Assembly (NCBI GenBank): GCA_035280345.1
Contig: DATEGA010000252.1
Coordinates: 5,836 to 69,835, forward strand
Source of the DNA: a bacterium
GTDB lineage: Bacteria > Sysuimicrobiota > Sysuimicrobiia > Sysuimicrobiales > Segetimicrobiaceae
Direction: 5' to 3'
DNA length: 64,000 bases
Made by a program: the position numbers and the translations under genes. The notes beneath the pieces are model-generated. The model made no database searches, was not told where the DNA came from, and worked only from the letters and a program-made list of their open reading frames with translations. Below, piece after piece: positions 1-22,413 of this stretch; the first letter of the stretch is position 1, and the number at the start of each line of letters is the position of its first letter.

Positions 1-258
1 TCGGTCCTCACTGCGCACGAGCTGGAGGTTCTCGCCGGTGTCGTGCAAGGCCTCAGCGACAAACGCATCGCTGCGAACCTGTTCGTATCAGAGGCAACGG
101 TGAAAACGCGTCTTCGCAGCATATACCAAAAGCTTGGGGTGCGTAACCGCGCGCACGCCGCGGTATATGCGGTCGAACGCGGGCTTGTGGCGTTCCCCTG
201 TCTTCTTGCCATCTTGGCCACACTGCTGGCGCAATTTCACATGCCCCCCTGGGCTTGA
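1..258 (+). CDS. LuxR/GerE-family HTH domain; C-terminal fragment of a regulator whose 5' end lies upstream of the window
   Basis: Frame-1 translation from nt 1 (SVLTAHELEVLAGVVQGLSDKRIAANLFVSEATVKTRLRSIYQKLGV) matches the LuxR-type helix-turn-helix signature. No start codon in the window. Confidence 0.6.
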   Translation, partial: SVLTAHELEVLAGVVQGLSDKRIAANLFVSEATVKTRLRSIYQKLGVRNRAHAAVYAVERGLVAFPCLLAILATLLAQFHMPPWA

Positions 259-354: not shown

Positions 355-957
355 GTGCGTAGGAGATTGAGCCTCGCTCGCTCTACATCCCGTGCAGGTG
401 AGCGCCCCAGACACGGTGGGTCGCCGAGCACGTCACGTCTGAGTCGTGGCGGGGTTTGCACGATGGTGGATGGAAGCGGCGATCTGATAGCTGTGCCGGT
501 CCAGACCGATGACGTTGATTCTCCCGATGTGGCCGGCCTTCTCGCTGAAGGATCCGGTGTTGCCCAAGCGGCCGAAAGACGGCTTCTGCATCTCGTCCGA
601 GACGCGGCGTCAGGCAAGGTCCCAGCCGCTGAGCTCACGGTCGAATTGTCCGCGCTGGCCGGGGACCTGCAGGCGTCGTTCCGGAAGCTTGTGGACGCTC
701 AAGACCGGCGGGATCTCGGTTTTCGCACGATGGCGACGCTTGAGCAACTGACGGCACGCCACGTGTGGCTGTACAGGAAAATTCAACTCGAGGAGGCGTT
801 CTATACCAAGTTGGAACTGGAGACCCTGCTGCGGTCTCTGATTTCCGCGGACGGATACGAAGTCTATCAGAAGCTGCTGTCCGTGGAAGATATGGAACGC
901 GGCCTCCTCGCCCTCTCTGACGCGGACCTGAGGCGCGCACTCCTCGCCTCCTCGTAG
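355..957 (+). CDS. hypothetical protein (start uncertain; may begin at the internal Met near nt 463)
   Basis: 200-aa ORF in a GC-rich frame with no recognisable motif. Lies between the LuxR fragment and the NusG paralog. Confidence 0.3.
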   Translation: MRRRLSLARSTSRAGERPRHGGSPSTSRLSRGGVCTMVDGSGDLIAVPVQTDDVDSPDVAGLLAEGSGVAQAAERRLLHLVRDAASGKVPAAELTVELSALAGDLQASFRKLVDAQDRRDLGFRTMATLEQLTARHVWLYRKIQLEEAFYTKLELETLLRSLISADGYEVYQKLLSVEDMERGLLALSDADLRRALLASS

Positions 958-1163
958 CGCTGTCTGCCTGATTCTGGGCCGCCGCACCCCGCGGACCGTC
1001 AAATGTCGTTGCGAGCGCCGGTTGGCGGCCCTAGCCTCTTTCGGGCGATGCCTTTGATGCCCCCCTAATGTCCGTTGGAGGGAAGGTATATGGGTCCCGG
1101 AAAGAGGACTGACTGAGGGCAACGGGCGTTTCTCCGGTTCGAACGCCCTGCTACGGACGTTCT
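958..1163. promoter_or_regulatory. 5' leader/promoter region of the glycan locus with a perfect 7-bp stem hairpin (GGGCGTT 1124-1130 / AACGCCC 1142-1148)
   Basis: 206-bp non-coding gap immediately upstream of the NusG-paralog gene. The inverted repeat was read directly from the sequence. Confidence 0.3.
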
Positions 1164-1673
1164 ATGGACACGGCCTGGTATACGGTGCAATCAAAACCGC
1201 ATAACGAAACGCGGGTCGTGCGCCACTTGGCCGGCCGGGACGTTCCGACGTTCCTGCCGTTCCTTGAGGTCGTCCAGCGTCGCACCGGCACATGCCGCAC
1301 GTCTCTCGAACCTCTGTTCCCCGGATACCTGTTTGTCAGGCTTGGGCCGGTGGACCACCAGCCCGAGACATGGAGCACGGTCCGATGGAGTCCGGGTGTC
1401 CGCAGCATCCTCGGCGCCGCCGGACAGCCGGTGCCGGTCCCGGAAGACGCGATCGAAGCCATTCGGGATCGCATGGGCACTCTCGGCTTTGTCCGGCCGG
1501 GCAGGCGGTTTGAACCCGGCGATCGCGTGCGTTTTCGAACGGGTCCGATGGTTGGACTCGAAGCGATTCTGGACCGCCAGGCGTCCAAGGCCGGCAGGGT
1601 GCATGTGCTGTTGTCGCTACTGACGGGTGGAGTTCGGATCGAGACCGACGAACTAGATCTTGAGTCGGCTTGA
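1164..1673 (+). CDS. NusG/RfaH/UpxY/LoaP-family specialised transcription antiterminator (NGN + KOW domains)
   Basis: The N-terminus MDTAWYTVQSKPHNETRVVRHL...PLFPGYLFVRL is the NGN-domain signature (WY.V...G.E, FPGY.FV). The C-terminal FEPGDRVRFRTGPMVGLEAIL is a KOW motif. It sits at the head of a polysaccharide locus, as UpxY/RfaH-type paralogs do. Confidence 0.8.
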   Translation: MDTAWYTVQSKPHNETRVVRHLAGRDVPTFLPFLEVVQRRTGTCRTSLEPLFPGYLFVRLGPVDHQPETWSTVRWSPGVRSILGAAGQPVPVPEDAIEAIRDRMGTLGFVRPGRRFEPGDRVRFRTGPMVGLEAILDRQASKAGRVHVLLSLLTGGVRIETDELDLESA

Positions 1674-1718: not shown

Positions 1719-2966
1719 TTGGGATTCAGGCGCAGTCAACGGCGGAGCCACAGGCGAGCGGCGGCCACCGACAGCCGGATACAAGGGAGTGACAGATTGG
1801 TGAACAAAACACAGCGGCGCGCCGGCGCACGGTCGCTCAGGGTGGGCGTGGCACTGTCCCTGATCGCGCTGCTGGTCGTGGTTTTCGCGATCCCGGGCAG
1901 CGACGCTTCAGCGGCGCCGAAGGAGTACGTCCTTGGGCCTGGCGACGCCGTTGATGTCGTCGTCTATGGGCAGGCTGATCTTTCCGAGATCGTTACCGTG
2001 AAGCCGGACGGCATGATCGCGCTGCCATTGGTTGGACAGGTGAAGGCGGCCGGCCGGACGACGGCACAGTTAGAACAAGACCTCGTCGCGGCGTATCGCA
2101 AGTACCTAAAGGCACCGACCGTTTCTGTGAAGGTCAACCAGTTCCGAACGAATCGGATCTACGTCCTCGGGCAGGTCTTCCACCCTGGTCAATACGAGCT
2201 CAAACCGAGCGCCGGCATCCTGGAGCTGTTGGCGGCCGCCGGCGGTCCCACCACGCGGGCCGACTTGGCCAAAGCGGTGTTGATTCGCGACAAAACCGAT
2301 ACGACACAACTTGACCTGGTCACCGCGATCAAGCAGAGCAAAGACCCCGCGGTCGCGCTGGAACCCGAGGATGTTGTCTACATCCCGGAAACGGACGCGC
2401 GCATCATCGTCCTTGGACAGGTGAACAAACCCGGCGCGTACGACCTGCTGGAGGGGCAGCGCGTCACCGATCTGATCGCGGGTGCCGGGGGGCCCACCGC
2501 CAAGGCCGCGCTGGCGCAGGCCTTCGTCGTCCGCGGTGAGCAGCAGATCCCCGTAGACCTGAAGAAGGCGCTCGCGGGTGATCCCGGCGCCGATATCGTG
2601 CTGCAGCCGCGCGACATGATGGTGGTGCCCGAATCACGCGAGCGTATCGCCGTGCTGGGCGCCGTGAACAAGCCGGGCCCGCAGGACTTCAAGCCGGACA
2701 TGAAGCTGGTGGATGCCATTGCCCTTGCAGGCGGCCAAACCAACAACGCGGATCTCCGCAAGGTGCAGATCATTCGAATCGAGAACGGGCAGGGAAAGAC
2801 GATAAACGTCGACTTCAACAAAGTGCTCCGGGCTCAGGATCCGTCGCAAAACGTTCAGTTGCAGAATGGGGATATTGTCTACGTGTCGCAAAAGGGGTTC
2901 ACGTTGGCTCTGCTCGGCGGGATCGTGAACATTTACTACCTGCTGCGGACCGCGGCGGGGTTCTAG
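1719..2966 (+). CDS. Wza-like outer-membrane polysaccharide export protein (Poly_export + SLBB repeats); true start probably around 1790-1800
   Basis: Signal-like segment LSLIALLVVVFAIPGSDASA, then YVLGPGDAVDVVVYG...DGMIALPLVGQVKAAGRT (Poly_export motif). This is followed by three repeated units of the form VLGQVNKPG / VLGAVNKPG (SLBB-like). Confidence 0.75.
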   Translation: MGFRRSQRRSHRRAAATDSRIQGSDRLVNKTQRRAGARSLRVGVALSLIALLVVVFAIPGSDASAAPKEYVLGPGDAVDVVVYGQADLSEIVTVKPDGMIALPLVGQVKAAGRTTAQLEQDLVAAYRKYLKAPTVSVKVNQFRTNRIYVLGQVFHPGQYELKPSAGILELLAAAGGPTTRADLAKAVLIRDKTDTTQLDLVTAIKQSKDPAVALEPEDVVYIPETDARIIVLGQVNKPGAYDLLEGQRVTDLIAGAGGPTAKAALAQAFVVRGEQQIPVDLKKALAGDPGADIVLQPRDMMVVPESRERIAVLGAVNKPGPQDFKPDMKLVDAIALAGGQTNNADLRKVQIIRIENGQGKTINVDFNKVLRAQDPSQNVQLQNGDIVYVSQKGFTLALLGGIVNIYYLLRTAAGF

Positions 2967-2990
2967 CCATGGACGGAGGAGGGAGATAAC

Positions 2991-4607
2991 ATGGAAGGCC
3001 GGTCGGAGCTCCGTCAGTATTACGAGATTCTGCGACGGCACGTCACGATCATTGCGCTCGTCGTCGCGCTCGCAATCGGCGGTGTGGGTCTGCAGCTCGC
3101 CATCCAGGGGCGGCAGTATCAGGCGGACGTGAGCGTGCTCGTGACGCCTCAGGCCTTCAATGGGGGTCTCGACACGAACCCGAACTTCGCCGCATTTCAG
3201 ACGCAGTACCGCAATCTCGTGATGAACGATATTCTCTACCTCGCCAAGAGCAGCGAGGTGCTCAGGCGGGTGGGGCAGCGGGTTCCGCAAGTTAGTCCGG
3301 CTGCTCTGTACCGTGAGATCAAAGTCACGAACCTTCCCAACACCGACATCGTGGTCGTGAGCGCTCGGGATGGGGTGCGGGACCGCGCCGTCCTCATCGC
3401 CACGGCTACGACCCAGGAACTCGTAGCCTACTACGCGGAGTTGAACCAGGCCGCGGCGGCCGGCACGCGGCAGTTCATCGGGCAGCAGGTCGCCGTCACG
3501 AAGCAGAAGTTGGAAGCCGCGGAGGATAGTCTCCGGGCGTTCAAGACCCAGGCCAACATTGCGGGTCTCCCCGAGACGACCTCACGTATGATCCAGCGAT
3601 CCTTTGAGCTGCAGGCGATGTACAACGCCGCCATGTTAGACGTGCGGGCCGCACAGATGCGCGCCGGTTCCCTGCAGCAGCGGCTCCGATCGGAGAGCGG
3701 CGGTCAGCTTGCGTCGGTCGAGATCGGCACCAACCCCGTGGTCGCCCAGCTGCGCGACCGTCTTATGGCCGCGGAGGCCGACCTCGCGAGTTTGCGTCAA
3801 GTGTACACCGACCAGCATCCCAAAGTGCAGCAGGCGCTCGGTAACGTCGCCGACCTGCGGGCTCGGCTGCGCCAGGAAGCGGCCCAAGCCGCCAGCGATC
3901 GGTCGATCGGCGTGAGCCCGATTCGGGAACAGCTTGTAGCGCAGCTGCTGAACGCTCAAGTCGACGGGGAAGTGGCACAGGCGCGGGCGGAAGCCATCAC
4001 GCCCTTGCTGGGACAGCTTCAGTCGAGTATGAGCCAGCTGCCGACGAACGAATTGACGTTTGCACGGCTCCAGCGGGACGCAAAAGTGAACGAGGATCTG
4101 TATATGCGGCTGTCTGCGCTCTATCAGGACGCCAAGATTGCCGAGCAGAAGGCCGGCGTGTCCGGGCAGGCCGCGCTCGCCACCGTCGATCAGACTGACC
4201 CCAGCCCGGTGTCGTCGCAGTTCCCGCTCAAGGCGGGTCTCGGCGGATTGCTCGGACTGGTCATGGGCTGTGTGCTCGCGCTGCTGGTCGACAACTTGGA
4301 CAATCGCGTCCGGACGCCCGGCGACGCCGAGGGCACCTTCGGCGTTCCTGTCCTTGCGTCCGTTCCCACGATGAACCCTCAAAACCATCGTGCACTCATG
4401 GGTGAGTCAGGCGGTGTGGCGGGCACAGTGGGGATGATCTTGCCGATTGTCATGCCGTTCGTGCTGCCGTTCCTCTTCGTCATGCTTGGAGGGCTTGCCG
4501 TCGGGCTGCTGGTCAGTAAAGCCGGCCCGGTGGTCGGATCTGTCGCGGGACAGGCCGGGATCGCCGTCACCCAGATGCTGCACCACCTGACAGCACTTCT
4601 TGGTTGA
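2991..4607 (+). CDS. polysaccharide co-polymerase / chain-length determinant (Wzz/GumC/ExoP-like) with an unusual extra hydrophobic C-terminal tail
   Basis: RBS ggaggagggag upstream. N-terminal TM (IIALVVALAIGGVGL), a long periplasmic coiled-coil region, a second TM (LLGLVMGCVLALLV) and about 100 aa of extra G/V/L-rich hydrophobic tail. Confidence 0.7.
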   Translation: MEGRSELRQYYEILRRHVTIIALVVALAIGGVGLQLAIQGRQYQADVSVLVTPQAFNGGLDTNPNFAAFQTQYRNLVMNDILYLAKSSEVLRRVGQRVPQVSPAALYREIKVTNLPNTDIVVVSARDGVRDRAVLIATATTQELVAYYAELNQAAAAGTRQFIGQQVAVTKQKLEAAEDSLRAFKTQANIAGLPETTSRMIQRSFELQAMYNAAMLDVRAAQMRAGSLQQRLRSESGGQLASVEIGTNPVVAQLRDRLMAAEADLASLRQVYTDQHPKVQQALGNVADLRARLRQEAAQAASDRSIGVSPIREQLVAQLLNAQVDGEVAQARAEAITPLLGQLQSSMSQLPTNELTFARLQRDAKVNEDLYMRLSALYQDAKIAEQKAGVSGQAALATVDQTDPSPVSSQFPLKAGLGGLLGLVMGCVLALLVDNLDNRVRTPGDAEGTFGVPVLASVPTMNPQNHRALMGESGGVAGTVGMILPIVMPFVLPFLFVMLGGLAVGLLVSKAGPVVGSVAGQAGIAVTQMLHHLTALLG

Positions 4608-5328
4608 GATGTCGGCAGTGGAGCCAGTAGAGCCGCAGCATACGGACACCGCGGGGAGTCCCGGCACGCCACTCTTCACGGCGTACGGCGACAACTCGCC
4701 GTTTGCGGAGGCGTATCGGTCTCTTCGGGTAAGCCTCTTCAGCGGCAACGGCGCCTCGCCGCGGCTGCTTGGCATGACCGGAGCGGCGCCGCGGCACGGG
4801 AGCTCAACCACGGCCGCCAATTTCGGGCTGATTATGGGAGAAACCGGGACACAGGTCGTGCTCGTCGATGCGGATCTCTATAGGCCTTCGCTGCACCGGT
4901 TCTTCAATCTCCCAAACACTGTCGGCCTGTCTTCAGTCTTGGCGGGGGACGTACGTCTGTCCGATGCGCTGCAGCCTATTACACCGCCGTCGCGGCTGAA
5001 GCTTCTGGCAGGCGGCCCCGCAACGCAAAATCCAGCGGCGCTCATGCGGCCGGAGCGGATGAAGAGCATTTTCGATGAGCTGCGCAGCCAAGCCGAGCTT
5101 GTGGTGGTGGATCTTCCGTCAGTGAGCTCTGTAGCGTACACTTCGCAGTTGGCGACTATGCTCGATGGGATCGTTCTCGTGCTGCTGGCCGGCGCCGAAC
5201 CGTCGGACGTGGACCGATTGGTGCGCCGGCGCTTGAAAGGCTCACAACTGGTCGGGATCGTCCTGAATCGGGTTCCGCTGCGGGGGAGCGACGCAACACC
5301 GTACCGGCATTATGCTGATCTGAAATAA
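4600..5328 (+). CDS. BY-kinase (CpsD/CapB/Wzc C-terminal domain) homolog with a degenerate Walker A (likely pseudokinase)
   Basis: LLGMTGAAPRHGSSTTAANFG aligns to the canonical PGEGKSTT P-loop, but the Lys is Ser. Walker A' (VVLVDADLYRP) and Walker B (LVVVDLPSV) are present. The C-terminal Tyr cluster is poor (PYRHYADLK). Confidence 0.7.
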   Translation: MVEMSAVEPVEPQHTDTAGSPGTPLFTAYGDNSPFAEAYRSLRVSLFSGNGASPRLLGMTGAAPRHGSSTTAANFGLIMGETGTQVVLVDADLYRPSLHRFFNLPNTVGLSSVLAGDVRLSDALQPITPPSRLKLLAGGPATQNPAALMRPERMKSIFDELRSQAELVVVDLPSVSSVAYTSQLATMLDGIVLVLLAGAEPSDVDRLVRRRLKGSQLVGIVLNRVPLRGSDATPYRHYADLK

Positions 5329-5431: not shown

Positions 5432-6499
5432 ATGCTGATTGTCCGTGCACCGGTGCGGATTAGCTTCGCGGGCGGCGGCACCGATTTGGAGAGTTACTAT
5501 CGGCCGTTTGGCGGACTGGTCGTCAGCGCCGCGATCGACAAGTATTTCTACGTCTTTGTGACCGTCAATAAAGGCGAAAGTATCCAGATCATGTCGTCCG
5601 ATTTCCGCACGTTTTACCGGCAGGATGCAGATCAGGAGATGTTGTGGGACGGTGACTTGGCGCTCCCTCGCGCCATCCTCAACTACTTCAACGTCCACGA
5701 GGGGCTCTCGATGTTCCTGGCGTCGCAGGTGCCGCCAGGCACCGGTCTCGGTTCTTCCAGCACCGTCGCGGTCGCCGTGATCAAGGCCCTCACGAGCCTG
5801 CAGGGTCTCGCGTTATCGAAGCAGGAGATCGCCGAGTTGGCCTGTTCGATCGAAATCGAGAAACTCGGCATGCCAATCGGCAAACAAGATCAGTATGCGG
5901 CGGCGTTTGGGGGCATCAACGGGATCGCCTTTGAACACGACGGTGTCTCGGTCCATCCTCTCAGGCTTTCGCCCGATGTCCTGGAGCGACTCGAGCGCAA
6001 TGTGCTCCTATTCTATACCGGCGTGGCCCGGGATGCCGCGAAGGTACTCACCGAACAAAATCAGGCAACGCTCAACCGTTCCGCCGGGGTGATCGAGTCC
6101 TTGCACGCGATCAAGGGAATGGCGATGGAGGTCGGTCAGTGCTTTGAGCGGGGGGACCTCCGAAAGCTCGGTGAACTGCTGCACACATCGTGGGAGTACA
6201 AGAAAAAGCTCTCGGCCGGGATCACCAATGCGTGGATCGACGAGTGCTACGAGACGGCGCGCTGTCACGGGGCAATCGGCGGCAAGATAACCGGGGCCGG
6301 AGGTGGCGGCTTCCTCATGCTCTACTGCGAAGAGCGAGGAGCGCCCGCGGTGACCGAGGCTCTGGGCCGGCTCGGCCTCAAGCGAATGGACTTCTCCGTG
6401 GACTTCGATGGCGCGAAGATCCTGGTGAACAACGGCATTCCGTTTCAAATGCTGGGGCAGGGAAGGCGCGCCGGCGAGGTCGCCGTTGTGAACGGGTGA
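5432..6499 (+). CDS. GHMP-family sugar kinase, HddA-like (D-glycero-D-manno-heptose 7-phosphate kinase-like)
   Basis: MLIVRAPVRISFAGGGTDL N-terminus and the PPGTGLGSSSTVAVAV GHMP ATP-binding motif. RBS ggagacggagagg upstream. Confidence 0.6.
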   Translation: MLIVRAPVRISFAGGGTDLESYYRPFGGLVVSAAIDKYFYVFVTVNKGESIQIMSSDFRTFYRQDADQEMLWDGDLALPRAILNYFNVHEGLSMFLASQVPPGTGLGSSSTVAVAVIKALTSLQGLALSKQEIAELACSIEIEKLGMPIGKQDQYAAAFGGINGIAFEHDGVSVHPLRLSPDVLERLERNVLLFYTGVARDAAKVLTEQNQATLNRSAGVIESLHAIKGMAMEVGQCFERGDLRKLGELLHTSWEYKKKLSAGITNAWIDECYETARCHGAIGGKITGAGGGGFLMLYCEERGAPAVTEALGRLGLKRMDFSVDFDGAKILVNNGIPFQMLGQGRRAGEVAVVNG

Positions 6500-7875
6500 T
6501 GCCCAGGGCCGATCGGCACGTCATGATCTTGGGGTTGATCGGGGTCGACGTGCTGGCGCTGACGATCGCCGGGGCTCTGACCTCAAAGCTTCTGCCGTTC
6601 GATATCCTGGCAGCGGGCCGGGGAGCGTCCCAGTTTCTGCTGGTGGCGGCGCTTCCGGTGGCCATCGGTTTGTTTGCAGCCAATCGCCTCTATGTCCTCG
6701 ACGAGCTTCTGGAGGGGCCCATCGAGTACGGGCGGATCGTCTATGCCTGTACGCTCACGACGTTCGGGCTGAGCGTAATCGGGTTCTGGTGGCGTGATGT
6801 GGATGCGCTCGCCCCGTCGCGCCGGCTCGTGACGGCTCTCTGGTTTCTCTCGATTCTGGCCGCGGTGACGGGGCGGTTCATCGTGCGCCGCGTCGTGCGG
6901 GCGCTGCGCCGCCGAGGGTTGCTGACGACGCGCACGCTGATCGTCGGCCTCGGCGCCCAGGGGTTGTCGTTGTGCCGGCACTTTCGCGAGCTCCGGCACG
7001 CGGGGGTTGAGGTCGTCGGGTTCATCGACGACTTCCTCCCGGCAGGGACGCCCGTGGTCGACGGACTCAAGGTACTTGGCCCTCCGAGCGCTCTGCCGGC
7101 GGTCTTGCGTGAGACCGGCGCCGGCGACGTGATCGTGGTGCCGACGGCTATGGCCTGGGAGAGTTTCCACGACCTCATTCGTGATACCGCCACGTTGAAT
7201 GGGCACACCGTGCGCCTCACGCCGGGATTCCGCGATATCCTGGCCGCGAACATAAAAGTGCATCATTTCGGATCGATGCCGTTGCTGACGATCGAGCGGG
7301 CGCGTATTACAGGGCTCGAGGCCGTCCTGAAACGGCTCGTGGACTACACGCTTGCCGCCGTGCTGCTGCTATTCAGCCTGCCGATCCTTGCTACCGTGGC
7401 GATAGTGCTTCGCGCCAAGGGAGTGCGGGTATTTTCTCGCGTCGCCACGATTGGACGTGGCGGGCGAACCTTTCAGGCCGTGGTGTTCAACGCATCGGAC
7501 CCCGACAATGGCTTCCAGCGCGCAGCGGTGCGGCTCGGGCTCGACAAGGTCGTACAGCTCTGGAACGTGCTGTGCGGCCGGATGAGCATCGTCGGTCCTC
7601 GCCCCGTCCCTGTTCATCGGCGCCGTGAATATGAGCGCTGGGTGCCGAACCTGTTGACCGTCAAGCCGGGTGTCACCGGACCGTGGGCGCTGACCGGCGT
7701 CCGTCTCCCTTTGGACGACGAGATGCAGGCGACCCTGTTCTACATCCGCAACTACACCATTTGGCTGGATCTCGAAATTGTCGTTCGATCTATCCTCCGG
7801 GTGCTCCGCGGTCGCGCGGTCCCCGACCACACGAGTGAGCCGGTCCGCCGTGACGCCGTCACAGTACATCAGTAG
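6499..7875 (+). CDS. undecaprenyl-phosphate sugar phosphotransferase, WbaP/WcaJ-like (large polytopic priming PGT with CoA-binding-like domain)
   Basis: TGATG overlap with the upstream gene. N-terminal TM helices, a Rossmann-like LIVGLGAQG segment, and a C-terminal bacterial sugar-transferase motif IVGPRPVPVHRRREYERWVPNLLTVKPGVTGPWAL. Confidence 0.75.
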   Translation: MPRADRHVMILGLIGVDVLALTIAGALTSKLLPFDILAAGRGASQFLLVAALPVAIGLFAANRLYVLDELLEGPIEYGRIVYACTLTTFGLSVIGFWWRDVDALAPSRRLVTALWFLSILAAVTGRFIVRRVVRALRRRGLLTTRTLIVGLGAQGLSLCRHFRELRHAGVEVVGFIDDFLPAGTPVVDGLKVLGPPSALPAVLRETGAGDVIVVPTAMAWESFHDLIRDTATLNGHTVRLTPGFRDILAANIKVHHFGSMPLLTIERARITGLEAVLKRLVDYTLAAVLLLFSLPILATVAIVLRAKGVRVFSRVATIGRGGRTFQAVVFNASDPDNGFQRAAVRLGLDKVVQLWNVLCGRMSIVGPRPVPVHRRREYERWVPNLLTVKPGVTGPWALTGVRLPLDDEMQATLFYIRNYTIWLDLEIVVRSILRVLRGRAVPDHTSEPVRRDAVTVHQ

Positions 7876-8464
7876 CCTGCGCGAGGCGCTCGCCAAGGTG
7901 TCGGTTTCGGACCTTCGCGAGATCGAAGACGTGCTCTTCGACGCGTGGCGCCACGGGCGCACGATCTTCATCGCCGGGAACGGTGGCAGCTCGTCAACCG
8001 CCTCGCATTGGACCAACGACCTCAACAAGGGAGCGATTACCGCGGGGGGACGTCGATTTCGCGCGATGGCGCTCACCGACAACGTGCCGCTGATTACCGC
8101 GTGGGGCAATGACACCGCGTACGAGCGGATCTTCGTCGAGCAAATGACGAACTTCATCCAGCCTCACGATGTGTTCGTCGCCATCAGCGGCAGCGGAAAC
8201 TCGCCCAATATCCTTGCGGCCGTGCAATGCGCGCGGAGCGCGGGCGCCGTCACGGTCGGCCTGACCGGCCGCGACGGTGGCCAACTGCGGGTCCTCGCCG
8301 ACCACGCAGTGGTGGTCCCGGCACACTACATGGAGATCATCGAAGACGTCCATTTGGCGCTCTCGCACCTGCTCTGCACGGCGCTGCGGGCGAGGATTGC
8401 CGCACCGATGCCCGCGGGCGAGGCGATCCCCGTCACGCAAACGATGTCCCGACCGGAGGCGTGA
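7835..8464 (+). CDS. SIS-domain phosphoheptose isomerase, GmhA-like (GTG start at 7835 or 7850)
   Basis: TIFIAGNGGSSSTASHWTNDL ... VFVAISGSGNSPNIL ... VGLTGRDGG match the GmhA SIS motifs. Confidence 0.65.
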   Translation: MSRSAVTPSQYISSLREALAKVSVSDLREIEDVLFDAWRHGRTIFIAGNGGSSSTASHWTNDLNKGAITAGGRRFRAMALTDNVPLITAWGNDTAYERIFVEQMTNFIQPHDVFVAISGSGNSPNILAAVQCARSAGAVTVGLTGRDGGQLRVLADHAVVVPAHYMEIIEDVHLALSHLLCTALRARIAAPMPAGEAIPVTQTMSRPEA

Positions 8465-8466
8465 TC

Positions 8467-9225
8467 ATGAAAGCCATCCCAGACCCTGTCATCAACAGCA
8501 GCGAGCCCGATTCGAGCTTGGGGCACATGCCGGACGGCCGGTGGGCGTTTGACGCCAACGTGACGCAGGTGTTCGACGATATGCTCCGGCGATCGATCCC
8601 GCAATACGATGTCATGCGCCAGGCCGTGTACGATGTCGGATGCAAGTTCATCAAGCGCGATACGGATATCGTCGATCTGGGGTGCGCCAGGGGCGAGGCG
8701 CTGGCCCCATTCGTCGACCGATTCGGCGCGCAGAACCGCTACCTGGGTGTCGAGGTGAGTGAGCCGATGCTCGCCGCGACACGGCAGCGCTACGCCGGCC
8801 TTATCAACACCGGTGTCATGCGGGTGCAAAACAGCGATCTCCGGTACACGTATCCGCTCGCCAAGGCGAGTCTCACCCTGTCCATCTTCACCGTCCAGTT
8901 CGTGCCGATCGAGTACCGGCCGCGGCTGCTCGCCGACGTGTTCGCGTCGACCGTTCCCGGCGGTGCGATTGTCCTGGCGGAAAAGATCATCGGATCCACC
9001 GGCGCTAACGATCGCCTCTTTGTCGATCTCTACTACGATATGAAGCGCCGCAACGGCTACAGCCAGGACGAAATAGACCGCAAGCGGTTCTCGCTGGAGG
9101 GCGTGCTCGTGCCCGTCACCGCGAAGTGGAACGAAGATCTCCTTCGTGAAGCGGGTTTTTCGCGGGTTGAGAATTTCTGGCGGTGGATGAATTTTGGCGC
9201 GTGGCTGGGCGTCAAGCCTGCGTGA
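8467..9225 (+). CDS. CmoA-family SAM-dependent enzyme (carboxy-S-adenosyl-L-methionine synthase homolog)
   Basis: ATGA overlap with gmhA-like stop. Colinear similarity to E. coli CmoA across the whole length: WAFDANVTQVFDDMLRRSIPQYD, DLGCARGEA, FTVQF...RPRLL, PGGAIVLAEK, MKRRNGYSQDEIDRKRFSLE, AGFSRVENFWRWMNFGAWLGVK. Confidence 0.6.
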   Translation: MKAIPDPVINSSEPDSSLGHMPDGRWAFDANVTQVFDDMLRRSIPQYDVMRQAVYDVGCKFIKRDTDIVDLGCARGEALAPFVDRFGAQNRYLGVEVSEPMLAATRQRYAGLINTGVMRVQNSDLRYTYPLAKASLTLSIFTVQFVPIEYRPRLLADVFASTVPGGAIVLAEKIIGSTGANDRLFVDLYYDMKRRNGYSQDEIDRKRFSLEGVLVPVTAKWNEDLLREAGFSRVENFWRWMNFGAWLGVKPA

Positions 9226-9241
9226 GCGTTGCGTACCGGGC

Positions 9242-10141
9242 GTGAGCAACAGGAGCGCGACGGTCATCGAACAGCCTGGGTGGCAGCCCGCAGTCGCTTC
9301 AACAGGATCGCGGGCCGAAGAAGTACCCGCGATCCGGGTCGAGCCGTCGAAGGGGTGGGCTGCGCTCCAGCTCCGCGAGGCGTGGAAGTCTCGAGAGCTC
9401 TTGTATTTTCTCGTTTGGCGGGATGTCACAGTCCGCTACAAGCAGACGGTGTTTGGGGTGCTGTGGGCGGTTTTCCAGCCGTTGTTTGGGACAGTGGTCT
9501 TCACCCTGTTTTTCGGCCGGTTGGCCAAGATGCCCTCGGACGGCGTGCCGTACCCGTTGTTCGCTTATGCCGCATTGGTGCCGTGGACGTTTTTTGCCAA
9601 CGGCTTGAACCAGATTTCCAACAGCCTCGTACGCGATGCCAATCTCATCACGAAAGTGTACGTACCGCGGCTTCTGATCCCGTTCGCGGCCGCCGTCGCT
9701 GGGTTGGTCGATTTTCTCGTGGCATTTGTTATTCTGCTCGGCATGATGGTCCTCTACCGAACGCCGCCGACGGCGAACATTATCTTCCTACCGTTCCTTG
9801 CCCTGCTGGCGCTGGCGACGTCGATCAGTGTGGGTCTCTGGTTGTCGGCGCTGAACGTGCAGTTCCGCGATGTGCGATACGTCCTGCCGTTCGTGGTGCA
9901 GGCATGGCTCTTCGCCACACCGATCGTATATCCGAGCAGTCTACTGCCGGCGCGGTGGCGCCTGGTGTACGGGCTGAATCCGATGGTCGGCGTAGTAGAA
10001 GGCTTTCGATGGGCCCTCTTGGGGACGCATACCCGTCCCGGCGGCATGATTATCGTTTCAGCGCTCACGGTAGTTGGCCTGTTGATCGGCGGGATGATCT
10101 ACTTCCGGCGGACGGAAAGTAAGTTCGCCGACGTGGTCTAG
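9242..10141 (+). CDS. ABC-2 type polysaccharide exporter permease (Wzm/KpsM-like)
   Basis: LREAWKSRELLYFLVWRDVTVRYKQTVFGVLWAVFQPLF is the ABC-2 N-terminal signature, followed by six hydrophobic segments. The start (GTG near 9242) is uncertain. Confidence 0.75.
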   Translation: MSNRSATVIEQPGWQPAVASTGSRAEEVPAIRVEPSKGWAALQLREAWKSRELLYFLVWRDVTVRYKQTVFGVLWAVFQPLFGTVVFTLFFGRLAKMPSDGVPYPLFAYAALVPWTFFANGLNQISNSLVRDANLITKVYVPRLLIPFAAAVAGLVDFLVAFVILLGMMVLYRTPPTANIIFLPFLALLALATSISVGLWLSALNVQFRDVRYVLPFVVQAWLFATPIVYPSSLLPARWRLVYGLNPMVGVVEGFRWALLGTHTRPGGMIIVSALTVVGLLIGGMIYFRRTESKFADVV

Positions 10142-10159
10142 GGAGGGCCGAAGGGTCCT

Positions 10160-11470
10160 GTGAGCGGTCGCGCAGTCCGGGTCGAAAATCTCTCGAAACA
10201 ATACGTGCTGGGGCAGTGGCGGGCTCACGACACGCTCCGCGATCACCTGACTCGCACGTTCTCAGTGTTCTCGCGTGCGCCGCGCGAGCGGCAACAGCCG
10301 GAGACGATTTGGGCGCTTCGGGATGTGTCATTCGACGTCCAGCGCGGCGAAGTCGTTGGGATTATCGGAAACAACGGCGCGGGGAAGAGCACCCTTCTCA
10401 AAATTCTCTCCCGCATTACCGAGCCTACGGGCGGCTACGCGGAGATCCACGGGCGCGTGGGCTCTTTGCTGGAGGTTGGGGCTGGGTTTTTCCATGCGGA
10501 GCTCACGGGACGGGAAAATATCTATCTCAGCGGCGCGATCCTCGGAATGAAGAAGAGCGAGATAGACCGGAAGCGAGACGACATCATAGAGTTCGCCGGC
10601 ATCGAGCGGTTCATCGACACGCCCGTGAAACGCTATTCCACCGGGATGAACATGCGACTAGCGTTTTCGGTTGCCGCGCATCTCGATCAAGAGATCCTGT
10701 TCGTCGACGAAGTGCTCGCGGTCGGCGATGCGGAATTCCAACGAAAGTGCCTCGGGCGGATGGGGGAGGTATCCCGCGCGGGACGAACGGTGCTGTTCGT
10801 GAGCCACAACATGGCTGCGATCACCCATCTGTGTCCGCGCACACTGTGGCTGAAAGGCGGCCGGGTACATGCCGATGGCGCGTCGACAGATGTCGTATCG
10901 GCATACTTATCGGCTGGCCAGGGCGCCGGATCAGCGTGGCGCAATCCTTCCTCCAATCGCCCCTCCATGGACGGCGCATTCCGGGTGGGGGCGGCGCGTG
11001 TGCTCGCTGAAGACAACCGTCCTGCGAGCGTCATGGAGTTCCGGCGACCGTTTAAATTCGAGATAGAGTATGAGATCCTGCGACCGTTGAAGGATGTCGC
11101 GGTTGTTGTGAGGGTGATTAATTCGATCGGCGAGCACCTCTGGACGTCGTGGGACACCGATCCGGATCGCTGGGATAGCGGCTTGGTGAGAATGCCGGGA
11201 CGCTATGTCTCCGTGTGCAGAGTCCCGCCGCACTTCCTGAAGCCCGGACCGTACCGCGTCGACGTCGGTGCGCGCAGCGCGACGCCGCCGTACGAACTGC
11301 ACGAAAGTGTTCTGGCGTTTGAAATATCCGAGGTCGGATACGCGCTCCATCCCGACCGCGTAGGCGTGATCGCCCCGTTACTCGGCTGGGACGTGACGCG
11401 TGTCGACGAGGCGCACGGTCGCCTCTCCGAGTCAAGTTCTGAGCCTATAAGTGTTGAGGCAGCCCGATGA
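10160..11470 (+). CDS. ABC exporter ATP-binding protein Wzt-like with an extended C-terminal (putative glycan-terminus-binding) domain
   Basis: Walker A GIIGNNGAGKST, ABC signature YSTGMNMRLAFSVA, Walker B ILFVDEVLAVGD, plus about 180 extra C-terminal residues. Confidence 0.75.
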   Translation: MSGRAVRVENLSKQYVLGQWRAHDTLRDHLTRTFSVFSRAPRERQQPETIWALRDVSFDVQRGEVVGIIGNNGAGKSTLLKILSRITEPTGGYAEIHGRVGSLLEVGAGFFHAELTGRENIYLSGAILGMKKSEIDRKRDDIIEFAGIERFIDTPVKRYSTGMNMRLAFSVAAHLDQEILFVDEVLAVGDAEFQRKCLGRMGEVSRAGRTVLFVSHNMAAITHLCPRTLWLKGGRVHADGASTDVVSAYLSAGQGAGSAWRNPSSNRPSMDGAFRVGAARVLAEDNRPASVMEFRRPFKFEIEYEILRPLKDVAVVVRVINSIGEHLWTSWDTDPDRWDSGLVRMPGRYVSVCRVPPHFLKPGPYRVDVGARSATPPYELHESVLAFEISEVGYALHPDRVGVIAPLLGWDVTRVDEAHGRLSESSSEPISVEAAR

Positions 11471-11558
11471 AGATGCCGGCAACTCTCGCAAACCGCCCCA
11501 CGGCCGACTGCAAGGGCCGCGGGGCCGCGATCAGCTGACGTTCGGATCGGGCGCATCG

Positions 11559-12800
11559 ATGGCAGAGAGAGTCGTTGTGATCGAGCCGATGGGTGTCGGC
11601 GGGATCAGCCACTACACCTACTGCTTGTGTCAGGCACTACAAGCGGAGGGTCTAAACGTCTCGCTCATCACTACGGGCAACTATGAACTGATAGGGCAGC
11701 CGAGAGCGTTTCGGGTCTATCCGGTCCTTCGCGAATGGTTTCGACCCGATGATCCGTCCACCATATCTCGAGGTGTTCCACGTCCTTCCCCAATCGCAGT
11801 GGCGTGTCGCCGGCTGAGAGTCGCGCGCGAGATGTTCCAGGTCTTGTTCATTGTCTTGAGGGAGCGCGCATCTATCGTACATCTCCAGTGGCCGGTTGGC
11901 CCGCACGACTGGCTATACCTGGCGGCGCTCCGGTTGTTGAGACGCCGAATCGTTTATACGGCTCACGATGTGCTCCCTCATGAGCACACGTCGGATGACG
12001 CCGTCCGTCTTCAGCGCCTCGTGCGGTATGTCGACCGCGTGATTCTCCATTCACATGAGAATGGTAGAGCCTTTCGCCGCACGTTCGGCGATGCAGCGAG
12101 GTCCTTGTACATCGTGCCGCACGGGAACTATTTCTTCTTCCCAGGGGCGGTTAGGTCGGGGAACGGGGATGCGCGCACTGCCGTGGGCGTGCCGCGCGAA
12201 TCGCGCATCATACTGTTCTTTGGCGCCATTCGGCCTTATAAGGGGTTAGGTGATCTGGTTGCGGCGTTTAGCTTGGTCCGCCAGCAGGTCCCGGCGGCAC
12301 GGCTTCTGATTGCGGGATATCCTTTCGAAGATTTTGGCCCGTACCGCGAGGCGATCGCCGGCGAAGACCTCGAGGATTGCGTGACGACCCACTTGGGCTA
12401 CCATCCCATGTCCGAGGTGGCGAAATTCTTCGAGGCCGCTGATGTAGCCGTTCTTCCGTATCGAACCGCATCGCAGAGCGGCATTGCACAGCTCGCGTTC
12501 GCGTTCGGCGTGCCTATTGTCGCAACTCGCACGGGCGGTCTTCCCGAAGTGATCGAAAACGGGCGTACTGGCCTGCTCGTCGATCCCGGCGATCAACGCG
12601 GATTGGCCGAGGCGATCACGCGGCTTCTCGAGGATCCATCGCTGTGCCGCGCGATGAGCGAGCGTGCGAAGCAACGGGCCGCAACGCAGTATTCGTGGAG
12701 CCGCGTGGCCCGGCTGACACGAGCAATCTATGATGGCGACACGTCGGTCCAGGGGCCGGCCTCTTTGCAGCGCACTGGTACGGAGAGTGAAGTGCCATGA
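11559..12800 (+). CDS. GT4 (GT-B fold) glycosyltransferase
   Basis: C-terminal GT4 motif: LPYRTASQSGIAQLAFAFGVPIVATRTGGLPEVI...GLLVDPGD. Confidence 0.7.
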   Translation: MAERVVVIEPMGVGGISHYTYCLCQALQAEGLNVSLITTGNYELIGQPRAFRVYPVLREWFRPDDPSTISRGVPRPSPIAVACRRLRVAREMFQVLFIVLRERASIVHLQWPVGPHDWLYLAALRLLRRRIVYTAHDVLPHEHTSDDAVRLQRLVRYVDRVILHSHENGRAFRRTFGDAARSLYIVPHGNYFFFPGAVRSGNGDARTAVGVPRESRIILFFGAIRPYKGLGDLVAAFSLVRQQVPAARLLIAGYPFEDFGPYREAIAGEDLEDCVTTHLGYHPMSEVAKFFEAADVAVLPYRTASQSGIAQLAFAFGVPIVATRTGGLPEVIENGRTGLLVDPGDQRGLAEAITRLLEDPSLCRAMSERAKQRAATQYSWSRVARLTRAIYDGDTSVQGPASLQRTGTESEVP

Positions 12801-14095: not shown

Positions 14096-14760
14096 GTTCG
14101 GTCAACAGTCCATATCTTGCTGCCAAGACGCCGAAGGCCGCAATGAGGCGGTCCCGTCCAGTCCGCTGGCAGATGGCGGGGAAACGTCTACTTGACGTTC
14201 TCGTCGCAGCCGGTGTGTTGACAATTCTGTGCCCGTTTTTTCCAGTTATTGCGCTTGCGATAAAGCTGACGTCGCGCGGTCCGGTTCTCTATGTGTGGCC
14301 CGTCGTGGGTCAGTGGGGCCGTCCGCTAAAAGCGTACAAGTTCCGTACGATGGTTTCCGGCGCCGATGCAATGAAATCGGAACTGTTGGGTCACAACGAG
14401 TCGACCGGCCCCGTGTTCAAAATGAGGAAGGATCCTCGCGTGACGCCAATGGGCCGGATCCTCAGGAAGTTTAGTCTAGATGAGTTGCCGCAACTGTGGA
14501 ATGTGTTGAAGGGTGACCTTAGTCTCGTCGGACCTAGGCCGGTGCTAGCGGACGAGTGGGCGAGATTTGACGAATGGCACCGCCGTAAGTTGGAAGTGAA
14601 GCCCGGTATGATATGTCTTTGGCACATTCACGGCCAGCCGCGAGATTTTGATGAGTGGGTGCGCATGGATATTGAGTACGTCGATAATTGGTCCTTATGG
14701 CTCGATATCAGGGTGCTCGCCAGGGGAGCCATTTACCTCGCGGCCGGGAAAAACTATTGA
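14092..14760 (+). CDS. small monotopic sugar phosphotransferase (PglC/WecA-C-terminal-like bacterial sugar transferase); second priming PGT in the locus
   Basis: ATGA overlap with the upstream gene. Single N-terminal TM (LLDVLVAAGVLTILCPFFPVIALAI), then KFRTM...DELPQLWNVLKGDLSLVGPRPV ... KPGMICLWHI (sugar-transferase motifs). Confidence 0.75.
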   Translation: MSSVNSPYLAAKTPKAAMRRSRPVRWQMAGKRLLDVLVAAGVLTILCPFFPVIALAIKLTSRGPVLYVWPVVGQWGRPLKAYKFRTMVSGADAMKSELLGHNESTGPVFKMRKDPRVTPMGRILRKFSLDELPQLWNVLKGDLSLVGPRPVLADEWARFDEWHRRKLEVKPGMICLWHIHGQPRDFDEWVRMDIEYVDNWSLWLDIRVLARGAIYLAAGKNY

Positions 14761-14797
14761 CTCTTAAGGCGGCTAGAAAGCGGAGGACCGAATAGCG

Positions 14798-17481: not shown

Positions 17482-17504
17482 CCGCGTCCGGAGCCGGTTT
17501 CTTA

Positions 17505-19525: not shown

Positions 19526-19562
19526 TCGACGATCCGGTTAAGGTCCGCCCGGTCCAATTGCG

Positions 19563-20948: not shown

Positions 20949-21072
20949 GCAATCCGACAAGGTGCTACGGAGGCGGATCGATGATTACAGCGGCACCCGT
21001 ATCGTTTGACGAACGCACATATTGCGATGAATCCAACTGCTTCGGGCAACGAGATCGTCCATAACACTGCGG

Positions 21073-22329: not shown

Positions 22330-22413
22330 GAACGATGCCGGGCGGACACTTCAAACATTGACCGCTAGCGAGCAGCGTGGCGCGAACGTCCTGACTTTCT
22401 CATCCAACATACG

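What the first reader, a model, noticed from the sequence alone, without database searches (positions are those of the whole stretch)
1124..1673. Specialised NusG/RfaH-family antiterminator at the head of the locus, preceded by a leader hairpin
The first gene (1164-1673) has clear NGN (WYTV...; FPGYLFV) and KOW motifs but is only 169 aa, and it sits at the 5' end of a 50-kb unidirectional gene array (1.1-45.5 kb, almost all plus strand, many ATGA/TGATG overlaps). This is the arrangement used by UpxY, LoaP and RfaH-type paralogs to enforce read-through of very long polysaccharide operons. A perfect 7-bp hairpin (1124-1148) lies 15 nt upstream of its start codon in a 206-nt leader. It could be part of a recruitment or pause element, by analogy with ops or UpxY 5'-UTR sites.
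Basis: partly seen in the sequence, partly recalled or inferred. Interest (0 to 1): 0.55.

Follow-up and report, generated by a model that had tools for sequence, protein, structure and literature searches.

The report
Polysaccharide-operon NusG paralog with conserved leader

Summary
ORF 1164-1673 is a 169-aa NusG-family protein with an NGN domain and a KOW-like C-terminal barrel. It is not a housekeeping NusG. It scores far below NCBI's nusG equivalog cut-off, and at least seven distinct related loci keep the order response regulator, small unknown protein, NusG paralog, Wza, Wzz/GNVR, ParA-like kinase, GHMP kinase, initiating sugar transferase. It also falls below the curated cut-offs for RfaH, UpxY and LoaP, so I file it as an unclassified specialised paralog (NusG-SP).

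The 7-bp hairpin at 1124-1148 exists but is at chance level. There are 74 such stems in the window, and the equivalent segment of 11 orthologous leaders folds no better than shuffled sequence.

The new observation is a motif at 1031-1114, conserved in 11 distinct leaders. It has four blocks at 83-87% identity, one variable spacer of exactly 14 nt in all 11, one copy per locus, and ends 45-71 nt before the start codon. It matches no Rfam family and no ops consensus.

My best reading is that it is a paralog-specific loading or pause element, as ops is for RfaH and opsX for UpxY (about 0.45). The main rival is a promoter plus operator (about 0.3). The plus-strand array is interrupted at 23.6-26.8 kb, so one transcript spans at most about 22 kb. 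This is a new member of a known kind.

The parts
1..258 (+). 3' end of a LuxR/GerE-type response-regulator gene, cut by the window edge
   Evidence: Pfam GerE, E 4.2e-18. Full-length Response_reg+GerE genes occupy this position in L161, L163, L165, L167, L169, L170 and L171.
463..957 (+). Small conserved protein of unknown function. The ORF is open from 355, and homologues support a start near 463.
   Evidence: No Pfam or NCBIfam hit. Only 9 homologues among 5.8 billion sequences, all labelled hypothetical. It sits between the regulator and the NusG paralog in seven loci (L161, L163, L165, L171, L173 and L001, besides the window). The AF2 model is a helical bundle, pLDDT 79, with no significant PDB fold match.
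1031..1114 (+). Conserved leader motif, the candidate loading/pause element or promoter-operator. Block A 1035-1045 (CCTCTTTCGGG), block B 1050-1057 (GCCTTTGA), block C 1067-1088 (AATGTCCGTTGGAGGGAAGGTA), fixed 14-nt spacer 1089-1102, block D 1103-1109 (AGAGGAC).
   Evidence: nhmmer E-values of 4e-22 to 2e-12 in 11 distinct loci, always on the gene's strand and one copy per locus. Alignment A3. Mean pairwise identity is 0.83-0.87 in the blocks, 0.41-0.49 in the spacers and 0.32-0.36 in the flanks. Single copy in the window. No Rfam hit.
1124..1148 (+).
1164..1673 (+). Specialised NusG paralog (NusG-SP), 169 aa
   Evidence: Pfam NusG NGN. NCBIfam bit scores: RfaH 99.8, UpxY 56.3, LoaP 56.0, NusG 49.8, all below their cut-offs. 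102 homologues, about 40 of them in a tight 169-aa family. AF2 gives NGN plus a beta-barrel. Foldseek's best hits are NusG and RfaH structures.
1800..2966 (+). Wza-like polysaccharide export protein
   Evidence: Poly_export plus three SLBB stretches. It directly follows the paralog wherever the downstream sequence is held.
2991..4607 (+). Wzz/GNVR chain-length / co-polymerase protein
   Evidence: Pfam GNVR and Wzz.
4600..5328 (+). ParA-like P-loop protein, the likely cognate tyrosine-kinase-type ATPase
   Evidence: Weak ParA and CbiA hits. The position is conserved.
5432..23574 (+). Rest of the first co-directional block: GHMP kinase, Bac_transf initiating transferase, methyltransferase, Wzt-type ABC ATPase, several GT4 glycosyltransferases, epimerase, Wzy-like protein, WecG/TagA
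   Evidence: This is the maximal stretch a complex loaded at 1.1 kb could read without changing strand.

Best explanation
ORF 1164-1673 encodes an operon-specific NusG paralog (NusG-SP). Like other members of this class, it most likely replaces housekeeping NusG on RNA polymerase that has entered the polysaccharide operon. That would keep the polymerase resistant to pausing and termination through the roughly 22 kb of co-directional genes that follow (1.8-23.6 kb). The site where it is loaded is most likely the conserved 84-nt leader motif at 1031-1114, read either as non-template DNA in a paused complex or as nascent RNA. It is not the hairpin at 1124-1148. The gene lies directly behind its own candidate loading site, so the system would be self-reinforcing, as with UpxY.

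Shown here: the protein's family, that it is not a housekeeping NusG, the conserved gene order, the motif and its anatomy, and the chance-level status of the hairpin. Inferred: antitermination activity, loading at the motif, and the extent of the transcript.
For: Protein. It has an NGN domain, a KOW-like CTD, and Foldseek's top hits are NusG and RfaH complexes. It scores 49.8 bits against the 135.7-bit cut-off of the nusG equivalog model, while the RfaH, UpxY and LoaP profiles all score higher. It lacks the N-terminal insertion of E. coli NusG. It carries residues equivalent to RfaH K10, H20, E48, I93 and R138 (their roles are given in PMC7593976). The positions matching NusG I164, F165 and R167 read L, L and G. 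I recall, but did not check, that these NusG residues contact Rho.

Context. The same gene order holds from regulator to initiating transferase in loci whose paralogs are 57-87% identical. The downstream genes are polysaccharide export and synthesis genes.

Motif. It was found in 11 distinct loci at nhmmer E 4e-22 to 2e-12, always in the gene's orientation. Blocks are 83-87% identical against 32-36% in the flanks, and the 14-nt spacer has the same length in 11 of 11. It ends 45-71 nt before the start codon (coordinates), comparable with the +41/+42 start codons of class-1 opsX sites (PMC11685472). It stays with the paralog when the upstream genes differ: in L081 the upstream neighbour is on the opposite strand, and L168 has an ABC transporter upstream and a diverged copy that I identified only by eye (nhmmer did not detect it). 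The invariant core of block A, TCTTT (TTCTTT in 2 of 11), resembles the -11 TTNTTT -6 non-template motif that NusG NGN domains read in Bacillus (10.1101/2022.10.28.514324). None of the simple sigma-70 consensus scans flags a promoter in 1-3000.
Against: There are no functional data, and the organisms are uncultured. I could not locate the transcription start, so I do not know that the motif is transcribed. Conserved blocks separated by a fixed-length variable spacer are also what a promoter with an operator looks like. No consistent RNA structure was found: the RNAalifold consensus is only -8 kcal/mol, no base pair shows changes on both sides, and single-sequence folds disagree. No clear G(-10)/Y(-1)/G(+1) pause signature is conserved (my reading of A3). 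The motif occurs only once in 64 kb and is absent ahead of the second + strand block at 27.1 kb. It is confined to the clade with at least 62% protein identity (plus the by-eye L168 copy, whose paralog is about 60% identical), and more distant relatives carry other leaders. Terminator-like sites within the operon are no more frequent than in shuffled sequence, so a need for antitermination is not visible in the sequence.
Confidence: 0.5

Rival explanations
1. The motif at 1031-1114 is the promoter and operator of the polysaccharide operon. Blocks C and D would be the -35 and -10 elements of an alternative sigma factor, separated by the fixed spacer. Blocks A and B would be the binding site of the LuxR-type response regulator encoded upstream. 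The NusG paralog would then load elsewhere, or in cis without a specific site.
For: The variable spacer has exactly the same length in 11 of 11 sequences and lies between two conserved blocks. The GGAAGG-to-AGAG distance of about 16-17 nt is promoter-like. A start site just after block D would give an ordinary 40-60 nt 5' UTR. A response-regulator gene is nearby in almost every locus. In L081 the upstream neighbour is on the opposite strand, so a promoter must lie in that 537-nt gap, and conservation there begins only about 30 nt before block A. No convincing RNA structure was found.
Against: Neither block resembles a sigma-70 hexamer (no TAnnnT) or any alternative-sigma consensus I know of (ECF, sigma-54, sigma-B, sigma-28; from memory). 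The ECF-like AAC in block C is among its least conserved positions. Block C is conserved over about 20 nt, far more than a -35 element needs. Blocks A and B form a 13-nt-period direct repeat, not the inverted repeat typical of NarL/LuxR-type regulators. No second copy exists ahead of the other polysaccharide gene blocks in the window.
Confidence: 0.3
2. The hairpin at 1124-1148 is itself the functional element, acting as a pause hairpin, a LoaP-type protein-binding hairpin or a translational control element.
For: It is a perfect 7-bp stem. In the closest relative (L161, paralog 87% identical) the three substitutions in the 3' arm would all give G-U pairs. LoaP does use a small leader RNA hairpin (PMC12691694).
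Against: Its frequency is at chance level. z-scores around zero in all 11 leaders. Only 61% of cells pair when it is mapped onto the alignment. The minimum-energy fold of L161 uses a different register. The loop is not UNCG-type. The surrounding sequence is the least conserved part of the leader (0.36 identity).
Confidence: 0.06
3. The motif is a cis-regulatory RNA independent of the NusG paralog (a riboswitch-like sensor, an attenuator, or an EAR-like processive-antitermination RNA), or it encodes a short leader peptide.
For: A local stem, UCGAG with UUCGA, pairs in 11 of 11 sequences with only wobble-type changes. Blocks B and C, and A and C, can form alternative pairings. One reading frame through the motif is free of stop codons in 10 of 11 sequences, and several variable positions are third codon positions.
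Against: No pair changes on both sides, the consensus energy is weak, and single-sequence folds are inconsistent. No Rfam family hits, even at E <= 10. There is no conserved start codon, and 1-nt indels break the frame in L163 and L171. The leader has no terminator to attenuate.
Confidence: 0.1
4. The protein is simply the organism's housekeeping NusG.
For: Pairwise it is closer to E. coli NusG than to E. coli RfaH: 57 against 35 bits, and 30% against 25% identity. AF2 gives an ordinary beta-barrel CTD.
Against: 49.8 bits against the 135.7-bit cut-off of the nusG equivalog model. The genes around it are polysaccharide genes, and none of the neighbours examined is a secE, rplK or rplA gene. It has a shortened N-terminal region and RfaH-like residues.
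Confidence: 0.02

Closest known systems
UpxY (Bacteroides capsular-polysaccharide NusG paralogs) with their opsX leader sites
   Same: The NusG paralog is encoded at the head of the polysaccharide operon it is thought to serve, directly behind a leader region. In UpxY systems the leader carries an extended, paralog-specific element made of non-template DNA, upstream duplex DNA and a pause hairpin, with the start codon a few tens of nt downstream (PMC11685472). Here a clade-specific 84-nt motif ends 45-71 nt before the start codon.
   Different: It is below the UpxY profile cut-off (56.3 against 100 bits). There is no UpxZ-like gene after it, because Wza follows directly. There is no invertible promoter and only one copy in the window. 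The phylum differs: the closest named relatives are Sysuimicrobiota/CSP1-3, Bacillota and Armatimonadota MAGs. A small unknown protein precedes the paralog instead of following it.
RfaH with its ops element (Proteobacteria)
   Same: It is the best-scoring curated profile. The short N-terminal architecture is shared. Equivalents of RfaH K10, H20, E48, I93 and R138 are present, as is a leucine-rich C-terminal stretch (VLLSLL here, MLLLNL in RfaH). The role would be the same: expression of long envelope-polysaccharide operons.
   Different: It is below the cut-off (99.8 against 144.5 bits). There is no GGCGGTAGnnTG in the leader. RfaH R73 is replaced by P and R23 by G. AF2 models a beta-barrel CTD, not the alpha-hairpin of autoinhibited RfaH. 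It is encoded in cis at its presumed target instead of as a stand-alone gene (PMC7593976).
LoaP (Bacillota, Actinomycetota, Spirochaetota)
   Same: It is a NusG paralog next to a long biosynthetic operon in the Bacillati, and a leader element is required for LoaP's action (PMC12691694).
   Different: It is below the LoaP cut-off (56.0 against 125 bits). I saw no UNCG-type hairpin, and the scan found no intrinsic terminator on the + strand of the leader. The target here is a polysaccharide cluster, not a polyketide cluster.
Shewanella 'CL7' RfaH-like proteins and Myxococcus TaA
   Same: These are NusG-SP genes embedded in their presumed target operons. The CL7 genes lie in exopolysaccharide operons next to CheY-type regulators (PMC7593976, PMC7819879). 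Here too a response-regulator gene lies upstream.
   Different: They are proteobacterial and are classed as RfaH. No leader motif has been described for them in the papers I read.
EAR (eps-associated RNA) of Bacillales
   Same: It is a conserved non-coding element associated with processive read-through of an exopolysaccharide operon (from my own knowledge of Irnov and Winkler 2010; I did not read the paper here).
   Different: EAR lies inside the operon, is a structured RNA, and as far as I know has no dedicated NusG paralog. No Rfam family matched here.

Membership tests
NusG/Spt5 superfamily | N-terminal NGN domain | tested here: met
   Pfam PF02357, E 7.9e-20, residues 4-101. FPGY motif present.
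NusG/Spt5 superfamily | C-terminal KOW beta-barrel | tested here: met
   Residues 112-167 align with the KOW domain of E. coli NusG. AF2 gives strands at 121-124, 133-138, 145-152, 155-162 and 166-168. Pfam KOW itself was not detected at E <= 0.01.
Housekeeping NusG | Passes the curated equivalog model TIGR00922 | tested here: not met
   49.8 bits against a 135.7-bit cut-off.
Housekeeping NusG | Encoded in the secE-nusG-rplK-rplA neighbourhood (PMC7819879) | tested here: not met
   It is flanked by a regulator, a small unknown ORF and Wza/Wzz polysaccharide genes here and in at least seven related loci.
RfaH | Passes the curated equivalog models TIGR01955 / NF006534 | tested here: not met
   99.8 against 144.5 bits and 63.3 against 124 bits.
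RfaH | ops element (GGCGGTAGnnTG) in the leader of the target operon | tested here: not met
   No match with up to 2 mismatches in 958-1163. The 72 matches across the window equal the shuffled expectation of 72.7.
RfaH | [quoted passage not shown] | tested here: inconclusive
   AF2's best model has a beta-barrel CTD. CTD confidence is lower, with pLDDT 72-82. Equivalents of E48, I93 and R138 are present, and F130 corresponds to L. One prediction cannot exclude fold switching.
RfaH | DNA-contact residues K10, H20, R23, Q24 and R73 | tested here: inconclusive
   K and H are present. R23 is replaced by G, Q24 by R and R73 by P. K10 and R73 are named as DNA-binding in PMC7593976; the other three are from my memory of the RfaH-ops structure.
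UpxY | Passes subfamily model NF033644 | tested here: not met
   56.3 bits against a 100-bit cut-off.
UpxY | First gene of a polysaccharide operon, behind a leader that carries the recruitment site | tested here: inconclusive
   The position and a conserved leader motif are present. Whether the motif recruits the protein is untested.
UpxY | Followed by a UpxZ anti-factor gene | tested here: not met
   The next gene is a Wza-type exporter. This holds in every relative where the downstream sequence is held.
LoaP | Passes model NF033641 | tested here: not met
   56.0 bits against a 125-bit cut-off.
LoaP | UNCG-type RNA hairpin plus a NusA-dependent intrinsic terminator in the leader (PMC12691694) | tested here: not met
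   I saw no UNCG loop closed by a stem in 958-1163. The scan found no terminator-like site on the + strand in 1-3000.
Known RNA families (Rfam 15) | Covariance-model match to the leader | tested here: not met
   No hits at gathering scores across the window. Only noise hits at E >= 1.3, and none inside 958-1163, when 900-1900 was scanned at E <= 10.

The most novel reading that the evidence does not exclude
The 84-nt motif is a new, unusually long multipartite loading site for a previously undescribed class of NusG paralog in uncultured soil Bacillati (CSP1-3/Sysuimicrobiota-like lineages). The invariant TCTTTCG would be a TTNTTT-type non-template pause and recognition element. The purine-rich GAGGGAAGGTA-N14-AGAGGAC module would supply specificity. 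The clade-restricted helical protein encoded just upstream (463-957) would act as a partner or anti-factor, playing a role analogous to UpxZ.
Probability: 0.2. Interest if true: 0.6.

Novelty: new member of a known kind. Interest (0 to 1): 0.4.

Why it matters
Specialised NusG paralogs let bacteria express very long capsule, exopolysaccharide, toxin and antibiotic operons. Only three of them (RfaH, UpxY, LoaP) have known recruitment signals, and these three work differently. This locus offers a fourth pairing of protein and candidate cis-element, from a poorly known, uncultured soil lineage. The motif is sharply defined (four blocks at fixed spacing, 11 independent examples), so it can be tested directly in vitro without growing the organism. 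If it is a loading site, it widens the known range of such signals and gives a search pattern for operons under this kind of control in metagenomes. If it turns out to be a promoter, the finding reduces to an ordinary annotation of a NusG-SP gene at a polysaccharide locus.

Tried and rejected
- **ops search.** GGCGGTAGnnTG with up to 2 mismatches gave nothing in the leader, and the window-wide count equals chance.
- **Rfam.** There were no hits at gathering scores over the whole window. At E <= 10 on 900-1900 there was only noise.
- **Sigma-70 promoter and intrinsic-terminator scans.** No promoter-like site and no + strand terminator in 1-3000. Terminator-like sites across 1-48 kb are no more frequent than in shuffles.
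- **Hairpin significance.** I counted perfect stems in the window, folded the equivalent segment in 11 leaders, and mapped the hairpin onto the alignment. All three were at chance level.
- **RNA structure of the motif.** RNAalifold, constrained alternatives and single-sequence folds gave weak and inconsistent results, with no pair changing on both sides.
- **Terminator or pause hairpin just upstream of block A.** Several leaders have GC-rich stems there, but z-scores range from -1.6 to +1.1.
- **Leader peptide.** One frame is open in 10 of 11 sequences, but there is no conserved start codon and 1-nt indels break the frame in two.
- **Second copies of the motif or its halves in the window.** There are none. 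One half-site match at 37178-37203 lies on the minus strand inside a gene.
- **The motif in more distant relatives.** It is absent. L167 and L169 share a different conserved leader, and Sysuimicrobiota/Desulforudis loci share none.
- **First genome-collection scan with the single protein.** It found nothing. The alignment-based scan worked.
- **Fold search for the small upstream protein.** It returned only generic helical bundles at E >= 0.16.
- **First structure job for that protein.** I reran it without them.
Full report
**What is at the coordinates.** The window has 62% G+C. ORF 1164-1673 on the + strand encodes 169 aa starting MDTAWYTVQ. Pfam finds an NGN domain (PF02357, E 7.9e-20, residues 4-101). 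The rest of the protein aligns with the KOW domain of E. coli NusG. AlphaFold2, run with a 38-sequence alignment, gives an NGN fold followed by a five-strand barrel (mean pLDDT 83). Foldseek's best PDB matches are NusG and RfaH in transcription complexes. The upstream ORF ends at 957, so the leader is 206 nt.

**Which kind of NusG.** Against NCBI's curated models the protein scores 99.8 bits for RfaH (cut-off 144.5), 56.3 for UpxY (cut-off 100), 56.0 for LoaP (cut-off 125) and 49.8 for housekeeping NusG (cut-off 135.7). It is therefore clearly not a housekeeping NusG, but it meets the curated definition of none of the three named paralog families. Pairwise, it is closer to E. coli NusG than to E. 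coli RfaH (57 against 35 bits; 30% against 25% identity). I checked that my recalled RfaH sequence is identical to PDB 2OUG and then aligned it.

That alignment gives a mixed picture:
- The protein lacks the N-terminal insertion of E. coli NusG.
- It has equivalents of RfaH K10, H20, E48, I93 and R138.
- It has P where RfaH has R73 and G where RfaH has R23.
- It has L, L and G where NusG has I164, F165 and R167. I recall that these NusG residues contact Rho, but I did not check this.

According to PMC7593976, K10 and R73 are DNA-binding residues (K10 acquired before RfaH arose, R73 later), and E48, I93 and F130 mediate autoinhibition. This family thus looks like a paralog that shares some, but not all, RfaH-type features. 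AF2 shows a beta-barrel CTD and gives no sign of the helical autoinhibited state. I treat that as inconclusive, because it is a single prediction for a family known to switch folds (PMC9247905).

**Relatives and context.** A search of 5.8 billion proteins found 102 relatives. About 40 of them form a tight family, mostly of 169 aa, from soil and hot-spring metagenomes. JGI labels many of them 'transcriptional antiterminator RfaH', and NCBI labels the window's own protein 'NusG family protein' (HKX19295.1). The closest named genomes are MAGs assigned to Bacillota, Armatimonadota and Candidatus Sysuimicrobiota (formerly CSP1-3).

In seven distinct loci whose paralogs are 57-87% identical to the window's, the order is the same. 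A Response_reg+GerE regulator comes first, then a small protein with no known domain, then the NusG paralog, a Wza-type exporter, a GNVR/Wzz protein and a ParA-like ATPase. Where the contig continues, a GHMP kinase and a Bac_transf initiating transferase usually follow; in L170 a family-2 glycosyltransferase follows instead.

In the window the genes after the paralog are polysaccharide export and synthesis genes all the way to 45.5 kb. The array is not continuous, however. Two minus-strand genes (23639-24511, FkbM-type methyltransferase; 24984-26822, no domain) split it into 1.2-23.6 kb and 27.1-45.5 kb. A complex loaded at 1.1 kb could serve at most about 22 kb.

**The hairpin.**
- Perfect 7-bp stems with 3-12 nt loops occur 74 times in the window (about 60 in Markov simulations), and 5.5% of 60-nt windows contain one.
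- The leader as a whole folds no better than shuffles (z = -0.64).
- I collected 11 distinct orthologous leaders and folded the segment between the conserved motif and the start codon in each. The z-scores run from -0.8 to +1.4.
- Mapped onto the alignment, the hairpin's columns pair in 61% of cells.
- Only the closest relative (L161) can draw a similar stem, through three G-U substitutions, and its minimum-energy fold uses another register.
- This segment is the least conserved part of the leader (0.36 mean identity).

I conclude that the hairpin is not a conserved element.

**The motif.** Aligning the leaders revealed a strongly conserved stretch just upstream of the hairpin, at window 1031-1114. 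A profile built from six sequences recovers it in all 11 distinct loci of the clade at E 4e-22 to 2e-12. It is always on the gene's strand, once per locus, and nowhere else in about 1.5 Mb of fetched loci.

Its consensus is TCTTTCGrGcGAyGCC-TTyGA, then 8-9 variable nt, then gAAaCGTCCrTTrGAGGGAAGGTA, then exactly 14 variable nt in 11 of 11, then cAGAGgAC. In window coordinates:
- Block A: 1035-1045.
- Block B: 1050-1057.
- Block C: 1067-1088.
- Fixed spacer: 1089-1102.
- Block D: 1103-1109.

Mean pairwise identity is 0.83-0.87 in the blocks, 0.41-0.49 in the spacers and 0.32-0.36 in the flanks. The motif ends 45-71 nt before the start codon. It travels with the paralog gene and not with the upstream genes. 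L081 keeps it although its upstream neighbour is on the other strand. L168, with an ABC transporter upstream, appears to keep a diverged copy with the same block order and 14-nt spacer, but I saw this by eye and nhmmer did not detect it. The motif is single-copy in the window and absent from relatives below about 60% identity. Some of those have other conserved leaders: L167 and L169 share one upstream of a different small ORF. No Rfam family matches.

**What the motif is.** I could not settle this.

In favour of a transcribed loading or pause element:
- All three characterised NusG paralogs depend on a cis element in the leader. RfaH uses ops in the non-template strand. UpxY uses extended opsX sites that combine non-template DNA, upstream duplex DNA and a pause hairpin, with the start codon at +41/+42 in class 1 (PMC11685472). 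LoaP uses an RNA hairpin plus a pause (PMC12691694).
- These elements are idiosyncratic and paralog-specific, as this motif is.
- The invariant TCTTT of block A (TTCTTT in two sequences) resembles the -11 TTNTTT -6 non-template motif read by NGN domains in Bacillus (10.1101/2022.10.28.514324).
- Neither half of the motif resembles any promoter consensus I know.

In favour of a promoter with an operator:
- Two conserved blocks separated by a spacer of invariant length, about 16-17 nt between GGAAGG and AGAG.
- An ordinary UTR length if transcription starts after block D.
- A response regulator always encoded nearby.
- No convincing RNA fold.

On RNA structure the evidence is thin. A local stem (UCGAG with UUCGA) pairs in 11 of 11 sequences with only wobble-type changes, but no pair changes on both sides. 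The RNAalifold consensus is only -8 kcal/mol, and single-sequence folds disagree. One reading frame through the motif is free of stops in 10 of 11 sequences. It has no conserved start codon, and 1-nt indels break it in two sequences, so I reject a leader peptide. GC-rich stems upstream of block A are not significant.

**How it most likely works.** The following is inferred. Polymerase transcribing the leader meets the motif and pauses. The paralog's NGN domain recognises the exposed non-template strand or the nascent RNA and takes the NusG site on the polymerase. The modified complex then reads through the export and synthesis genes to about 23.6 kb. Because the paralog gene is the first gene after the site, expression would reinforce itself. 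The response regulator upstream would set initiation. What is shown is only the family of the protein, its conserved context, and the conserved motif.

**Comparison and novelty.** Functionally, the closest system is UpxY with opsX. The best-scoring sequence profile is RfaH. The closest in arrangement are the Shewanella RfaH-like proteins inside exopolysaccharide operons next to CheY-type regulators, and Myxococcus TaA (PMC7593976, PMC7819879). The protein passes the curated test of none of the named families. It is a new member of a known kind. Its one new feature is the leader motif, which is sharply defined and directly testable.

**Limits.** All relatives are from metagenomes. I had only 11 independent motif sequences and no collection scans left to gather more. 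There are no transcript data.

Noticed in passing
window 463-957 (ORF open from 355): A small protein found only in this clade, with 9 homologues in 5.8 billion sequences, all labelled hypothetical and none with a Pfam or NCBIfam hit. It sits between the response regulator and the NusG paralog in seven loci (L161, L163, L165, L171, L173 and L001, besides the window). AF2 models it as a helical bundle (pLDDT 79) with no significant PDB fold match. It could be a partner or anti-factor of the paralog.
   Followed up: partly
window 23639-26822, minus strand: Two minus-strand genes interrupt the otherwise plus-strand polysaccharide array. One is an FkbM-type methyltransferase and the other is a 613-aa protein with no Pfam domain. 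The second plus-strand block (27127-45499) therefore needs its own promoter, and it carries no copy of the leader motif.
   Followed up: partly
L167 4045-4160 and L169 4540-4665: A sister clade (paralog about 60% identical, hot-spring MAGs labelled Armatimonadota) lacks the motif. It shares a different conserved non-coding stretch upstream of a different 114-aa ORF that abuts the paralog gene. This suggests that leader elements change together with the paralog.
   Followed up: no
window 1035-1112, + strand: One reading frame through the leader motif is free of stops in 10 of 11 orthologues and often ends in TGA, TAA or TAG right after block D. Several variable positions fall on third codon positions. 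There is no conserved start codon, and 1-nt indels break the frame in L163 and L171.
   Followed up: yes
window 55136-56485, minus strand: A CBS-GGDEF (diguanylate cyclase) gene lies among the glycosyltransferase genes beyond the main array. It is a possible c-di-GMP input to polysaccharide production.
   Followed up: no
window 49065-50681, + strand: A PA14 plus glycoside hydrolase family 26 protein sits next to the polysaccharide locus. It may trim or degrade the polymer.
   Followed up: no
window 9229-10122, 43535-45499 and 60865-63309: Three sizeable ORFs in or near the cluster (297, 654 and 815 aa) have no Pfam domain at E <= 1e-3 (1e-4 for the third).
   Followed up: no
window 1-258: The truncated LuxR-type regulator gives a sub-threshold hit to EpsA, the XrtB/PEP-CTERM-associated regulator (TIGR03020, 42 bits against a 170-bit cut-off). 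I saw no exosortase among the genes I scanned.
   Followed up: no
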